From Eledone cirrhosa (taxonomy: Eukaryota): a stretch of 64,000 nucleotides of DNA. The notes beneath the pieces were generated by a model. The model had not been told where the DNA came from. It saw nothing but the letters and a program-made list of their open reading frames with translations, and did no database searches. Shown here piece by piece: positions 17,300 through 63,900 of this stretch. The stretch is taken from the NCBI GenBank assembly GCA_964016885.1, contig OZ024742.1, positions 338,706,001-338,770,000 of the forward strand, read 5' to 3'. The stretch's first letter is position 1; each line of letters starts with the position of its first letter. Both the position numbers and the translations under genes were made by a program.

Positions 17300-17487
17300 T
17301 AGGAAAATGTTCAATACCCCGACGGCAGAGCTCAAGCCGTTTCGACGACTATTTCTGGACTCAGAAGTCCAGAAATAGCCGTTGGGGTCTTGAACATTTT
17401 CCTATTACCCACTCTACTACCCTAAGTATTGAGTACTCTGGTGCGTTATGGTCCATCTGGTTCCTTACCACACCTCGTTCGTTATAT
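17300..17487 (+). mobile_element. PLE-derived foldback mini-element (family G) next to (TA)n
   Basis: Inverted arm starting at (TA)n|AGGAAAATG, then forward arm plus tail TATTACCCACTCTACTACCC...CGTTA. Further copies at 18268, 23700, 25872, 48503, 61639, 63765. Confidence 0.8.
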
Positions 17488-17627
17488 ATGTACACACACA
17501 CAAACACACACACACACACACACACACACACACACACACACACACACACACACACACACACACACACACACACACACACACACACATATATATATATATA
17601 TATATATTTAGGTAAGTTATTCCGGGT

Positions 17628-18163
17628 TGAATCGTAAGTAAGGAACTCAATACATAGCAGAGTATAAAAGTTTTAATATAGATGAGATTCTACAGGACTA
17701 GAACTATTTCAATCCTTAGAAATCATCAGGAATCTGGCTTTCCAAAAATAAATGTAGTGGTATTTATATCTTTTCAGGTGGTAGTAGAGGGTGGGGAGTG
17801 GGATGGGTGGAGGTCATTGGTTGAAAGAAAAGGGAATTCATTAAAAGCTAATTCTTTAAGTCTATAGTTTATATTTAGAGTGACAAAGGCAGAAAGGATT
17901 CTATAAACAAGTTCAGAATGGGGTGCCACTCCTTATTTTTAAGTTTCTTTTAAGCTAACAATGCCTATATTTCAGGTGTCTATAAGGTAGTTGTGGGTCA
18001 GTCATGGTTGATGGATTTACAGAAAAGGGAAATTCTTTAAAAGCTAATTCTTCAAAGCTCTACTTAGAGTGACAAAGGCCTAGAGAATTCTATAAACCAG
18101 TTCAATATATTGGGTGTCTATCATTATTGTCATATTTCTCTTAAGCTATATTCCAGGTGTCAA
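17628..18163 (-). mobile_element. Probable PLE 3'/pLTR fragment; partial second copy at 27953-28070
   Basis: About 115 bp shared with 27953-28070. CTGATGA..GAAA motif on minus near 17700-17730. Ends in (TA)n. Confidence 0.5.
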
Positions 18164-18489
18164 CACACACACACACACACACACACACACATACACACAC
18201 ACACACACACACACACACACACACACACACACACACACACACACACACACACACACACACATATATATAGGAACGAGTAGGACCCCGACGGCTGAGCTCA
18301 AGCCGTTTCGACGGCTAATTCTGGACTGGTTCAGACTATGGTCCACCTGGTTTTTTACCACATTTCCTTCGTTATATATATATATATATACATACATATA
18401 TACAAATATATATATATATATATACATACATATATACAAATATATATATACACACATATATACATATATATATATACATATATATATAT

Positions 18490-19430
18490 ATAAATGGAAT
18501 AGGATGAAACGAAATTTCATTTCTCACTCTTAGTACGGCACTTACTTAAATGTAAGTATGTATGTATACGTACATACATATTTGTATACAGATGTACAGT
18601 AGTATGTATATATATATACATACATGCACACATATATACATGCACGTATCGGTTTACCGAACATTTATTATAATGCTCGGTTTGTTTGTTTGTAAACAAA
18701 CAGCCCGAATTACGCCGTACAGTGTTTAGGCAACACGTCACCTTTTTGTTCAACACTGACACAGGAACGATGTACTAGTTTCAAGCTTATTAGCTATTGT
18801 CAGCACCGTATACCTTCCTGCCAGATGGTTGAACGTCTGAAAGTATATACTTTCCTTATGCATATTAACGGCTGAGCAGCCTAATTTGCATATCGAGTGA
18901 GTTTAGTCGGCCGGGCGCACCGAAAACGATAAATGGAATAGAATGAAACGAAATTTCATTTCTCACTCTTAGTACGGCAGTTACTTAAATGTAAGTAAGT
19001 ATGTATGTATACGTACATACATATATGTATACAGACGTACAGTAGTATGTATATATATACATACATGCACACATATATATATGTACGTATCGGTTTACCG
19101 AACATTTATTATAATGGTCGGTTTGTTTGTAAACAAACAAACAGCCCGAATTACACCGTACAGTGGTTAGGCAACCACGTCACCTTTTTGTCCAACACTG
19201 ACACAGGAACGATGTACTAGTTTCAACAAAAAGGTGATGTGTTGCCTAAACACTGTACGGCGTAATTCGGGCTGTTTGTTTGTTTACAAACAAACAAACC
19301 GAGCATTATAATAAATGTTCGGTAAACCGATACGTGCATATATATATGTGTGCATGTATCTATATATATACGTACTACTGTACGTCTGTATACATATATG
19401 TATGTACGTATACAAACATACATACTTACA
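18490..19430 (-). mobile_element. Family F hammerhead-bearing ~440-bp unit: 1.7 tandem copies plus inverted arm
   Basis: 18490-18930 is repeated head-to-tail at 18930-19222 and then inverted at 19223-19430. Other copies at 25270-25820, 27487-27865 and 54125-54480. Confidence 0.85.
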
Positions 19431-19699
19431 CACACACACACACACACACACACATATATATATATATATATACACATACACATACATATACATATATACA
19501 CATACATACACACATACATACATATATATATATATATATATATATATATATATATATATATATATATATATATATATATATATATAAAATTTCAGGTTAT
19601 CAATAATGTAGTGATAATATATCGTCACGTTAGAGATGAACAGCGTACGTGTAGGTTTGCTCAGCAAGTATAAATTATATTCCGGAGAATACAACCCAT

Positions 19700-20810
19700 C
19701 CATGCCAATACAACAACGCAAAATTATAACTGTAACTGTGTCCAACCAGGAATGTGTCCGTTGAACAATCAGTGTCTTGAATGCAACATCATATACAAAT
19801 GTACTATCGAATCGGATAGCCAGAAGTGGTACTATGTGGGGTCTACAGCTAACTCCTTCAAATCTCGCCTTTATAGACATCGTTACTCGATAAAACATGA
19901 AAATCAACGTTATGTAACAACACTCGCAGACTATGCTTGGCAGCTGCGCGAAAATAACCAACAATTTAACCTAAAATGAGATATAATAGTGTTTGCCCCT
20001 GTATTATCCCACGGACAGGAATTTTGTAAATTGTGTAATATGGAATTATTTTGTATTATGAAATCCAAAAATATTTTATTAAATAACAGAATAGAGCGAT
20101 CGTTATACTGTAACCATCGCTTGAAATCTACATTTTCATATTACAAACACTACCAGGATTGAACGCCTGTCTCCATCTCCGTTTGATTGTCAAAATACAT
20201 ATTAACATTCTCTATTAGTCTTAATTCTATCAACTCTTCTATTCTTTACCATTTAATATAAACTGCTATAGATAAAATGAGATTTCTTAATTCAATTCCC
20301 TAATGCATATACCAGCAGGCTACCAGCTTTGTTGTTATACAGTAGCAGTGAAAATCTCCCTCTTCCTTAATTGACACTTTATATCTATTAATACTACTAC
20401 ACCAAACGACCAGCCCTGTCCATTGTTCAATTGGTCAAGTATAGATTAAAATAGGCACTCCCAAAAATTCTTATTTAGATAAAATAAGCCATATACACAT
20501 TGTATTCTCATTAGAAACTTTTATATACTTGTTTACCAGTAAATTGAATTGCCATCTGTCATATACTATCCCCTCTCTTCTTCCTTTATTACAACTAATA
20601 TAAATACTTCAATTTTTCTGATTTTTTCCAATTTATCCAATATCTCTGAAGAAGTGACAACTGATTATACATTTGCTATCGAATACTTGGTAACATTATA
20701 TGATTACGCAAGCAGCGATACATAGGTATTCCGTCTGTTACAGAAACATATGTCAATACCTAATAAATTCCTTTATAAAAGCACTTTCATTTTATATTCA
20801 TCTTTTCTAT
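19700..20810 (+). mobile_element. PLE 3' fragment: GIY-YIG endonuclease (Hydra-clade-like) and 3'UTR/pLTR
   Basis: CNCVQPGMCPLNNQCLECNIIYKC..YYVGST..FKSRLYRH..CKLCNMEL..LLNNR..CNHR, with one W-to-TGA stop. CTGAAGA...GAAAC at ~20646-20747. Ends in (TA)n. Confidence 0.85.
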
Positions 20811-62174: not shown

Positions 62175-62220
62175 TGCTCTGATGAGTCCCACTTATAGTG
62201 CGGATGAAACAATGTTAGCA
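62175..62220 (+). ncRNA. Minimal type I hammerhead ribozyme
   Basis: TGCT-CTGATGA-GTCCCAC ttata GTGCGGAT-GAAA-CAATG-TT-AGCA. Confidence 0.7.
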
Positions 62221-62847
62221 AGTAAAGATATGCATATGCTATAGGCGTTCTTTGTTATTTATTATATATATATTCATATATATGTACGTGTGTGTGCGAA
62301 CACCTTATCCTCTCATTTATACACAACACACGTGTGTATGTTTGAGTGTATATATATGTGTGTATATGTATATATATGTGTGTGTGTGTGTATATATATA
62401 TATGTGTGTGTGTATATTTATATATATGTGTGTATATGTATGTATATATATATATATATATATATATATATATATATATATATATATATATATATATATA
62501 TATATTTATATATATATATATGTGTGTGTGTGTTTGTGTGTATTCATACGTACATATATGCGTCCATATATACACACATATATCCATCTGCGTGTGTGCG
62601 CGTGCATGTACCATGCAATATATTCAAGACCGCGCAACAAGGATAATTTTTAATACCCTCACAAAGATATTTATGATATCTTCAGGAACACTTTTTAATA
62701 CGTTGAGACATTGAGCGCCAAACATATTGGTGTGACGTAACAATTATTTATGTATATAGGAATTTACTTGGATAAAACGGATAAAAGCCGATTTTCCTGA
62801 CTACTTGCCATATATATATATATATATATATATATAATATATATATA

Positions 62848-63040
62848 TAATTGTTTCTACTTTTGGCACCAGGCCTGCAATTATCCCAGTGCATTACTGG
62901 TACTTTATTTTATCGACTCCGCAAGGATGAAAGGCAAAGTTAACATCGGCGGGATTTGAACTCAAATCATAAAGGGAGGTAACTCTATGCTTCAAAGCAT
63001 GGCGCCCGACCCTCTACCGATACTGCCAATCCACTGCCCT
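62848..63040 (-). mobile_element. Meta/Deu-like SINE
   Basis: Reverse complement of the 7797-7990 family. Confidence 0.85.
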
Positions 63041-63058
63041 AATATATATATATATATA

Positions 63059-63713
63059 TAATGAAAAATAAAAGTTACGGGCGAAAGAAAGGAGTATCCT
63101 CGTCAGTTGTCTACTAGGAATCATTGGTATTTCTTCGGGTTAGAGACAATATACCTTAGCCTTGGGCGAACAATAACTAAAATAAGTTATTGGGATAAAA
63201 GAAGTGGGGTGGGGGTGGGGGTGAGAAAAATATGTAAAGACACGAAGGGTGAAGCAAAGTACAGAGAGGAAAAATAGGAAAATATCAAGTCAACAACTCA
63301 TGTCTAACGTAAGAACTGGCGAATTCTGACGAGAGAGAAAAAAGACACGTCTTAGCTGTAGCAGTGTTAGCGAGAGAAGAGGCTGCGTACAGTGGCGGAC
63401 GAGGGAGGAAGTGAGCTAGCAGAGAGAGGATGACTTGCAGAGAGGGAGGGAGTGAAAGTAAGAGGAAGCGAGAAAGAGATAGTTTAGTGGGAGGCTAGCC
63501 GAGATAAGGTGACTAGCAGAGGGGATGAGCAAAAGTAAGAGGAAGAAGGAGAGAGAAGGGGAGAGAGAGAGGATAGCAGCACAGGGAGAGAAAAGAGACG
63601 GGTCACAGCGAAGAAGGGAGCTTATGTGAATAAAAATGGCGAGCTGTGTGGTTGCATTTAAGTATAATGAAAAATAAAAGTTACGGGCGAAAGAAAGGAA
63701 TATCCTCGTCAGG
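63059..63713. mobile_element. ~610-bp unit with 47-bp terminal direct repeat in (TA)n (probable mini-PLE)
   Basis: AATGAAAAATAAAAGTTACGGGCGAAAGAAAGGA(G/A)TATCCTCGTCAG at ~63060 and ~63666. Confidence 0.55.
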
Positions 63714-63764
63714 TTATATATATATATATATATATATATATATATGTGTATATATATATATATA

Positions 63765-63900
63765 TGAAAAAGTATAACCCCGGCGGCAGAGCTCTGCCGT
63801 CGGGTTAAACTTTTTCCTATTACCCACTCTACTACACTAAGTATTGAGTACTCTGGTGCGTTATGGTCCATCTGGTTCTTTACCACACCTCCGTCGTTAT
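63765..63900 (+). mobile_element. Family G minimal foldback (short hairpin plus tail)
   Basis: AACCC(C)GGCGGCAGAGCTCTGCCGTCGGGTT palindrome followed by the family G tail. Confidence 0.7.

What the first reader, a model, noticed from the sequence alone, without database searches (positions are those of the whole stretch)
17300..63900. Recurrent asymmetric foldback insertions in (TA)n from many unrelated PLE families
Seen: at least eight sequence families share one architecture, (TA)n - inverted arm - forward arm - unique tail - (TA)n. Examples are 20931-23625, 23700-25190, 26716-27288, 51360-51950, 52640-53185, 53323-53828, 58200-58635 and the family G minis. Most arms carry a hammerhead or hammerhead-like core. 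Established: inverted 5' pLTRs and 3' tails occur in Penelope elements. Inference: (TA)n is its own reverse complement, so both nicked strands could prime on PLE RNA. That would make foldbacks the default product and seed the genome with hairpin or dsRNA-forming loci.
Basis: partly seen in the sequence, partly recalled or inferred. Interest (0 to 1): 0.75.

Follow-up and report, generated by a model that had tools for sequence, protein, structure and literature searches.

The report
Penelope two-primer head-to-head insertions
The hairpin-plus-tail repeats between TA microsatellites are real, very common insertions of Penelope-type jumping genes, a known architecture, and their ends show a strict rule (one arm starts at one fixed site, the other at a second site) that is best explained if both cut DNA strands likely copy the same stretch of one RNA, which offers a testable answer to how these elements insert.

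Summary
All seven named examples are (TA)n - arm - arm - tail - (TA)n; 42 of 288 local inverted repeats in 600 kb of evenly spaced genome samples have this layout (1.2 expected; at least 24 families). Family G is a Hydra-clade Penelope-like element (PLE); A and B have the Neptune/Nematis linker; C is a non-coding hammerhead tandem unit. Of 131 head-to-head G pairs, 113 join one arm from site 1 to one from site 2 (77 nt apart); none joins two site-1 arms. Arms share subfamily variants, junctions differ between copies, and both arms either stop about 30 nt behind a TATA box (likely the transcript start) or both pass it (p 8e-10). Best model: two target-primed cDNAs made on one RNA leader, then end-joined. 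TA homology at the start sites is only 3-5 nt, so target symmetry helps but does not fix the sites. Inverted pLTRs, tails, TA targets and two-strand priming in vitro are published. The pairing rule was not found in print, but this scan noted similar models before, in this genome and others. dsRNA effects are untested.

The parts
20934..21434 (-). Family A inverted arm, starts at site 2, flush with TA run 20907-20933
21435..23625 (+). Family A forward arm: RT thumb, CxxxxCxxC linker and GIY-YIG with CCHH (ORF to 22425), 3' UTR, leader and 64-nt tail (23562-23625) ending at site 1
23383..23413 (+). Family A TATA box to predicted transcript start; 19 of 36 arm 5' ends pile up within 12 nt from 23412
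   Evidence: start site inferred
23449..23491 (+). Family A variant type I hammerhead fold, inside the predicted leader
23700..24783 (-). Family G (Hydra clade) inverted arm from site 2, 1,084 nt, longer than the forward arm
24784..25187 (+). Family G forward arm ending at site 1, with 77-nt tail 25111-25187
25003..25094 (+). Family G variant hammerhead with long loop II; predicted cut after 25090
25021..25050 (+). Family G TATA-like box (25021) and predicted transcript start (25050), the modal 5' end of both arms in minis
   Evidence: depth step in public contigs; start site inferred
25108..25139 (+). Family G site 2 (TAT homology to the target) and the bulged hairpin that follows it
25256..25823 (+). 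Family H foldback with hammerhead and a TA-interrupted tail (boundaries approximate)
26716..27026 (-). Family B tail-bearing arm (60-nt tail 26716-26775)
27027..27284 (+). Family B site-2 arm with hammerhead fold; longer copies carry a GIY-YIG ORF upstream
31937..32183 (-).
51363..51480 (-). Family C site-2 arm
51481..51955 (+). Family C forward arm with hammerhead and 118-nt tail; non-coding tandem unit of about 557 nt elsewhere
52642..53183 (-). Family D foldback, tail 52642-52717; no hammerhead or ORF link shown; spacer orientation unresolved
53324..53827 (+). Family E foldback: site-2 arm 53324-53491, forward arm 53492-53827 with hammerhead and 142-nt tail
58166..58632 (-). Family F foldback, tail 58166-58312; hammerhead variant at family level
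48505..48675 (+). Family G mini, both arms 100% identical to the reference copy
18269..18372 (+). Family G mini with a forward arm of only 36 nt
17302..17482 (+). Older family G-related mini
63767..63897 (+). Older family G-related mini
61641..61892 (-). Family G foldback that breaks the rule: site 1 paired with an end at -27; T run at the junction

Best explanation
These are insertions of endonuclease-bearing Penelope-like retrotransposons and their non-coding passengers, whose two arms start at two fixed sites of the element and were likely made by both cut strands of a (TA)n target priming reverse transcription on the same stretch of one sense RNA, followed by a predicted end-joining of the two cDNAs. 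Shown: one end at site 1 (tail end) and the other at site 2 (tail start); 3-5 nt of TA homology at the sites; arms of one subfamily; junctions that differ between copies; both arms stopping about 30 nt behind a TATA box, or both passing it. Inferred: GIY-YIG nicks both strands; the site-2 primer usually extends first; the site-1 primer copies the free tail and then displaces the first cDNA; priming in the 5' leader of the mRNA runs off the RNA end and gives minis, while priming in the read-through 3' copy gives long elements; host end-joining fuses the two 3' ends head to head.
For: Pairing: 113 of 131 G pairs are site-1/site-2, 0 are 1/1, 1 is 2/2, 17 have a damaged or other end. A: 18 of 21, B: 14 of 16, E: 15 of 20. 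C: outer ends 1/2 in 7 of 7 elements checked (9 loci). Genome counts are near 1:1: 17,806 site-2/TA junctions against 16,988 tail-bearing arms. Same template: discordant arms at five subfamily sites are 0/54, 0/92, 1/91, 4/99 and 6/103, against 12, 19, 41, 55 and 68 under random pairing. Same leader copy: both arms pass -150 in 8 pairs, only one in 3, neither in 102 (Fisher p 8e-10); when the site-2 arm passes it, the partner stops at the predicted start in 0 of 10, against 68 of 103 otherwise. Not a copy of the tail-bearing cDNA: the site-2 arm reaches more than 10 nt further 5' in 30 pairs, the site-1 arm in 5 (p 2e-5; 9 against 1 among copies at least 98% identical). Run-off: modal 5' end -137 in G, 29 nt behind a TATA-like box; piles 30 nt behind a TATA-like box in A (19 of 36 ends), F1 (15 of 28) and F5 (7 of 8); public contigs show a depth step and T or A runs at that place. 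Junctions (104 short pairs): 20 blunt, 43 with microhomology (33 of 1-2 nt), 41 with inserts, several copied from nearby sequence. Literature: the anole PLE nicks and extends both strands, starts at two sites that bracket the tail, and is a predicted dimer (PMC11167929).
Against: No reaction was observed; the order of events and the displacement step are inferred. The length bias is not significant outside G (A 5:4, B 8:4, E 4:1) and vanishes in G at zero threshold (54:42). B has no sharp 5' pile, and in E the TATA box lies only 19 nt before the pile edge. No cap-G signature was found (next base T 38, C 14, G 13, A 4). Exceptions exist: 61641-61892; 2 site-1/site-1 pairs in family F10 and 1 in E, not resolved; 2 of 30 G arms without a partner. 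Subfamily concordance would also follow from two RNAs of one source locus, or from gene conversion between arms. In vitro the two strands did not differ in start site and the start was not homologous to the target (PMC11167929). Most G loci come from the first 37 Mb of one contig and were chosen for an intact site.
Confidence: 0.62

Rival explanations
1. Site-2 cDNA first, then snap-back: the first cDNA folds on itself and makes a sense copy, while the site-1 primer copies little more than the tail and anneals to that copy. One RNA, no strand displacement.
For: Also gives mixed pairs, matching arms and a shared 5' limit. Predicts that the site-2 arm is never shorter, which nearly holds in young G copies (9:1 at 10 nt, 7:0 at 20 nt). 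Five rare variants are shared by both arms of one insertion.
Against: The tail-bearing arm is clearly longer in the window's A element (2,191 against 501 nt) and C element (475 against 118), in 4 of 12 unequal B pairs and 4 of 9 unequal A pairs, and in long G copies L042, L062 and L080. 61 of 104 junctions are blunt or carry inserts.
Confidence: 0.13
2. A dimeric particle carries two RNAs from one source locus, and each protomer primes on its own RNA, one at site 1 and one at site 2.
For: Needs no displacement; fits the predicted dimer (PMC11167929) and subfamily concordance.
Against: Does not explain why 1/1 and 2/2 pairs are almost absent, nor why both arms use the same leader copy, without extra rules. 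Discordance at diagnostic sites is no higher than at other sites.
Confidence: 0.14
3. Self-priming: either the tail-bearing cDNA folds back and copies itself to site 2, or an antisense RNA primes itself at a palindrome (the reading offered in PMC3846280).
For: 5 of 104 G junctions lie in the palindromic stem III region with 18-27 nt overlap; arms match.
Against: Predicts that the tail-bearing arm is never shorter; it is shorter in 30 of 35 unequal G pairs, including the window's 23700 element. Most junctions are not palindromic. The 5' limit sits behind a sense-strand TATA box in four families.
Confidence: 0.05
4. The foldback is itself a palindromic mini-element that is copied whole, or it arises from host snap-back repair at (TA)n, or from assembly error.
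For: One inverted duplication of a whole foldback across a TA run exists (L017/L018).
Against: Central junctions differ from copy to copy; ends are fixed by element sequence; TA-centred inverted pairs are 2 of 1,310 runs (0.6 expected); arms carry substitutions; public contigs show the same ends.
Confidence: 0.03

Closest known systems
Inverted-pLTR insertions with one-sided tail of endonuclease-positive PLEs (PMC3846280, passages and Discussion; PMC8557442, passages)
   Same: Head-to-head inverted 5'-truncated copy, tail at one end only, hammerhead in the pLTR, TATA and initiator in the pLTR, partial tandems.
   Different: Tails here are 36-168 nt, not 30-40; the foldback is the majority product, at roughly 70 per Mb; the rule of one arm per site, the shared leader copy and the run-off behind the TATA box are not stated in the passages read; the published reading is antisense self-priming or endonuclease resolution.
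Hydra clade of PLEs (PMC8557442)
   Same: Family G: RWR, DKT, CxCx5C linker, no CCHH, CxxC and CxH, C-terminal GIY-YIG, (TA)n target.
   Different: No tree was built. Very high copy number of leader-only minis; the transcript start is predicted inside hammerhead loop II.
Poseidon PAc of Anolis in vitro (PMC11167929, parts 1-2 of 4 read)
   Same: Both strands nicked and extended at AT-rich DNA; two internal start sites bracket the tail; hammerhead cleavage not needed.
   Different: There the start is not homologous to the target and does not differ between strands; here 3-5 nt of TA homology and one site per target end. No insertion product was completed in vitro.
L1 twin priming (recalled; search found no paper applying it to PLEs)
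   Same: Two target primers on one RNA, two cDNAs joined head to head with microhomology.
   Different: In L1 the second primer lands upstream of the first cDNA and inverts without duplicating; here the two cDNAs cover the same stretch and start at fixed sites.
Animal non-LTR retrozymes as non-autonomous PLE derivatives (bioRxiv 10.64898/2026.07.22.740005, abstract start and passages)
   Same: Family C: non-coding hammerhead unit of about 557 nt in tandem.
   Different: Here it inserts as foldbacks with the same two-site rule; circular RNA was not tested.

Membership tests
Hydra clade PLE (family G) | RT followed by C-terminal GIY-YIG in one ORF | tested here: met
   718-aa ORF in L061 with YRDD and the endonuclease region at the C-terminus. 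Pfam gave no hit for it; related window ORFs hit GIY-YIG below the cut-off.
Hydra clade PLE (family G) | RWK-like motif and DKT in place of DKG | tested here: met
   RLRWR at 35, DKT at 117, no DKG; criteria
Hydra clade PLE (family G) | CxCx5C linker, no CCHH, CxxC and CxH near the C-terminus | tested here: met
   CNCPDRSIC 572, CNLC 670, CKH 698; no CX2-5CxxC
Hydra clade PLE (family G) | Insertion into (TA)n | tested here: met
   TA runs of 8 nt or more on both sides in 102 of 105 exact pairs; part of the sample was chosen for TA at one end
Hydra clade PLE (family G) | Canonical hammerhead in the pLTR | tested here: inconclusive
   A variant core with full three-stem fold in 13 of 23 copies, 0 of 115 shuffles; cleavage not testable
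Hydra clade PLE (family G) | RT groups with Hydra in a phylogeny | not tested
   No reference proteins were on hand
Neptune/Nematis PLE (families A, B) | CX2-5CxxC linker before a C-terminal GIY-YIG with CCHH | tested here: met
   A: CGRSNCGTC, CKGC and two histidines; Pfam GIY-YIG 2.5e-6. B: sense ORF about 57% identical to the window ORF 54382-55266, which has the same motifs; B's own motifs were not read
Neptune/Nematis PLE (families A, B) | Placement in Neptune or Nematis by RT phylogeny | not tested
   The full RT was not retrieved
EN+ PLE derivatives (families D, E, F, H) | Link to an RT/GIY-YIG ORF | tested here: inconclusive
   E: no own ORF found within 1.5 kb on either side. D, F and H were not tested. 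E and F share the hairpin and a hammerhead with G
Non-LTR retrozyme (family C) | Non-coding hammerhead monomer in tandem | tested here: met
   557-nt unit, longest frame 53 aa, hammerhead in 33 of 40 copies
Non-LTR retrozyme (family C) | Self-cleavage and circular RNA | not testable with these tools
   Needs RNA data or an assay
MITE or foldback DNA transposon | Symmetric terminal inverted repeats and a shared internal structure copied whole | tested here: not met
   One-sided tail, variable junctions, arms continuous with PLE 3' UTRs and ORFs

The most novel reading that the evidence does not exclude
Penelope-like elements use a reverse form of twin priming as their normal route: a dimeric enzyme reads one RNA leader twice, from two element-encoded start sites, one per target strand, so every insertion is born as an asymmetric palindrome. 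Priming in the 5' leader runs off the transcript start and has filled this genome with on the order of 200,000 hairpin loci, which may be a major source of its double-stranded RNA.
Probability: 0.45. Interest if true: 0.72.

Novelty: new member of a known kind. Interest (0 to 1): 0.48.

Why it matters
How PLEs make their tandem and inverted ends and the one-sided tail is named as open in PMC8557442, and the one in vitro study read here (PMC11167929) stops before a finished insertion. These copies give exact predictions for that assay: one start site per strand, both arms from one RNA, and run-off at the transcript start. They also show that tens of thousands of short palindromes, easily filed as MITEs or SINEs, are PLE by-products. 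About 70 per Mb (50-95) is a large supply of potential dsRNA. PMC5625713 reports heavy editing of Penelope in lizard and an unusually high fraction of dsRNA-forming loci in octopus. Whether this genome is an octopod is a recalled guess from a SINE resemblance, and expression and editing were not tested.

Tried and rejected
Rfam found no family at gathering score; the E-value list shown held almost only microRNA models on simple repeats and palindromes. A DNA search of the genome with the G end returned nothing because common words are skipped. No RNA holder was listed, so expression, editing and the transcript start could not be tested. Laying contigs on the two window junctions (24783/24784 and 21434/21435) showed no bridging record among the rows listed; the tables were cut, so this is no evidence either way. 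No long-read check was possible. A cap-G signature was not found. Empty paralogous sites: 6, then 191 filled sites were tested; the hits were mostly chance neighbours of element ends, so no target duplication or growth of TA could be measured. TA-centred inverted duplication as a general cause was rejected (2 of 1,310 runs). The generic pipeline was unreliable for F1, F2, F4, F5, F11, F14 and D because of poor references; F1, F2, F4, F5 and F14 were redone, where F4 shows no sharp pile and F2 and F14 give too few pairs. Apparent site-1/site-1 pairs in C (5 of 6; 12 of 30 loci) are inner tandem units in the 9 loci checked. Rows left out: 9 long pairs of 113 in the junction counts; one element is counted twice among the 131 pairs (L051 and L062). 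Reach values of E are unreliable because some references were palindromic.
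Full report
OBSERVATION. A self-comparison of the window with microsatellites masked recovers all seven named examples, each with one arm flush to a TA run and the other separated from its TA run by a 60-147 nt tail. The window lies in a 3.0-Gb animal genome. In 60 evenly spaced 10-kb regions, 42 of 288 inverted repeats without an inner TA run have this layout, against 1.2 expected for random intervals. 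That is 70 per Mb (Poisson 50-95, clustering ignored), or roughly 200,000 loci if the sample is typical (inference). With a slightly wider tail range, 43 such elements fall into 24 sequence clusters, and 191 elements from all regions and the window into 47. Arms of the seven examples differ by 1-8 substitutions, and contigs from public runs show the same TA loose end at 25110, so an artefact is unlikely. The window's own central junctions were not bridged in the rows listed.

WHAT THE FAMILIES ARE. Family G has a full copy in L061 with a 718-aa ORF bearing RWR, DKT, YRDD, CxCx5C, CxxC and CxH and lacking CCHH. These are the Hydra-clade marks given in PMC8557442 (passages), where nearly all Hydra families insert in (TA)n. 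Family A has the Neptune/Nematis linker and a Pfam GIY-YIG hit; long B copies carry a related ORF in sense. C is a non-coding tandem unit of 557 nt. No ORF was found for E; D, F and H were not tested for one. Three-stem hammerhead folds occur in half or more of the copies of A, B, C, E, F, G and H and in 5 of 1,270 shuffles, but not in D or the 32017 family. My scanner admits variant cores; Rfam gives nothing at gathering score.

THE END RULE. I call the tail end site 1 and the tail start site 2. Genome-wide exact counts for G are 16,988 tail-bearing arms, 17,806 site-2/TA junctions and 24,494 site-1/TA junctions with a pattern that also takes a sister subfamily. Of 131 head-to-head G pairs, 113 are mixed, 0 are site 1 with site 1, 1 is site 2 with site 2, and 17 have a damaged or other end (one element counted twice). 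Of 30 tail-bearing arms picked without regard to partner, 22 have a site-2 partner in the locus, 1 a damaged partner, 2 none, and 5 run off the locus, three of which resolve as mixed pairs in larger regions. Of 30 loci each, 19 (A), 16 (B) and 13 (E) have a site-2 arm within 1.5 kb and none a tail-bearing inverted arm. In C the outer ends are mixed in 7 of 7 elements checked. Against the rule: the window copy 61641-61892, and 2 unresolved site-1 pairs in F10 and 1 in E. Site 2 shares 3 or more alternating TA letters with the target in 82 of 104 junctions (about 10% by chance) and in 20 of 30 clusters; read-through copies show TA-rich letters after site 1 in G, B, C and E. Following a lead from earlier notes of this scan, I found a bulged hairpin a few bases after both sites in G and after site 2 in 13 of 45 clusters (12 of 9,000 shuffles), but not in A, B or D, and in C only as a looser look-alike seen by eye.

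ONE TEMPLATE, COPIED TWICE. Central junctions differ between copies, so the foldback is made anew each time. The two arms agree at five subfamily sites (0/54, 0/92, 1/91, 4/99, 6/103 discordant; 12, 19, 41, 55, 68 expected), with no more discordance than at other sites. In 65 of 113 pairs both arms end between -150 and -129 from site 1, with the mode at -137 (window 25050), 29 nt behind a TATA-like box. Piles 30 nt behind a TATA-like box recur in A, F1 and F5; E fits poorly, and B and F4 have no sharp pile. Public contigs show a more than tenfold depth step at this place in X1 and X2, with T or A runs as loose ends. I read this limit as the 5' end of the transcript; no cap-G supports it. Arms pass the limit together: both in 8 pairs, one in 3, neither in 102 (p 8e-10). 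So both primers used the same copy of the leader. When the arms differ by more than 10 nt, the site-2 arm reaches further in 30 of 35 G pairs, which a self-copy of the tail-bearing cDNA cannot give; in A, B and E the bias is not significant, and tail-bearing arms are sometimes much longer, which a snap-back of the site-2 cDNA cannot give. Junctions are blunt, have 1-2 nt microhomology, or hold short inserts, some copied from nearby, as expected of end-joining (established knowledge, recalled).

MECHANISM. The best fit is two target-primed cDNAs on one RNA leader. Site 2 is probably primed first, leaving the tail single-stranded; the second strand primes at site 1, copies the tail and displaces the first cDNA; the two 3' ends are joined. 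Priming in the 5' leader gives minis, priming in the read-through copy gives long elements and tandems. The end rule, concordance and shared limit are shown; nicking, order, displacement, transcript start and joining pathway are inferred.

WHAT IS KNOWN. Inverted 5' copies, one-sided tails and TA targets are described (PMC8557442, passages; one supplement searched, listing octopus Naiads in (TA)n). PMC3846280 (passages; Discussion) describes the same layout at targets with ordinary duplications and reads the palindromes as antisense self-priming. PMC11167929 (parts 1-2 of 4) shows nicking and extension of both strands and two start sites bracketing the tail. Nine searches found no paper stating the one-site-per-end rule, a shared leader copy or run-off at the transcript start; the library lacks most subscription papers, including older Penelope work, and I did not see the supplements of PMC11167929 or PMC3846280, which may bear on this. 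PMC13282606 (passages) counts Penelope in Octopus vulgaris without such structure in the passages seen; PMC5625713 (passages) links editing to dsRNA abundance. Earlier notes of this scan reached similar two-primer readings in this and other genomes; I formed my reading before seeing them and they are not independent support.

VERDICT. Real and genome-wide; new members of known PLE clades showing a known architecture; the quantitative end rule makes an open mechanistic question directly testable. The dsRNA role is unproven: the strict layout accounts for 5,112 of about 23,900 bases in near-perfect local inverted arms of the sample, the rest unclassified.

Noticed in passing
young family G insertions (32 pairs): The two flanking TA runs sum to a median of 78 nt, while the length-weighted median of pure TA runs in the genome sample is 25 nt. 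Either long runs are preferred or TA is added or duplicated at insertion. The empty-site test was inconclusive.
   Followed up: partly
L017/L018 (G000:C1 about 5,866,290-5,866,750); window 51172-51285 and 61913-62048: Inverted duplications centred on a TA run; in L017/L018 a whole foldback with its own junction is mirrored. Rare overall (2 of 1,310 runs).
   Followed up: partly
L133:653-4820 and L156:5646-8556: Multi-kilobase near-perfect palindromes that span several TA runs and nested elements.
   Followed up: no
window 25003-25094: The predicted promoter and transcript start of family G lie inside loop II of its hammerhead, so the 5' leader would carry only half a ribozyme; in A and F1 the whole hammerhead lies after the start.
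   Followed up: partly
window 51481-51955; L271-L300: Family C is a non-coding hammerhead unit of 526-560 nt that inserts as tandem foldbacks with the same end rule; 6,050 exact motif matches. A candidate for a circular RNA template.
   Followed up: partly
window 28124-30444, 19674-19979, 54382-55266: Further PLE ORF remnants: two with the Hydra-type CxCx5C linker and one with the Neptune/Nematis linker.
   Followed up: partly
window 39450-45913: A broken non-LTR retrotransposon on the minus strand (AP endonuclease and RT in pieces, preceded by a zinc-knuckle ORF); family label L1/Tx1-like is recalled.
   Followed up: no
window 49534-50490, 59041-59227, 62842-63038, 7781-8399: A SINE family of about 185 nt; its resemblance to octopus SINEs is recalled, not tested.
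   Followed up: no
window 1-950: Tandem array with a period of about 28 nt.
   Followed up: no
run X5 on window 25060-25089: One low-depth contig of another organism reads this stretch in both orientations, a hint that the same foldback exists there.
   Followed up: no
L110:2114-2768; L069:7531-8044: Family G ends repeated in tandem with a fixed period (257 nt in L110), possibly repeated template jumps or a short circular template.
   Followed up: no
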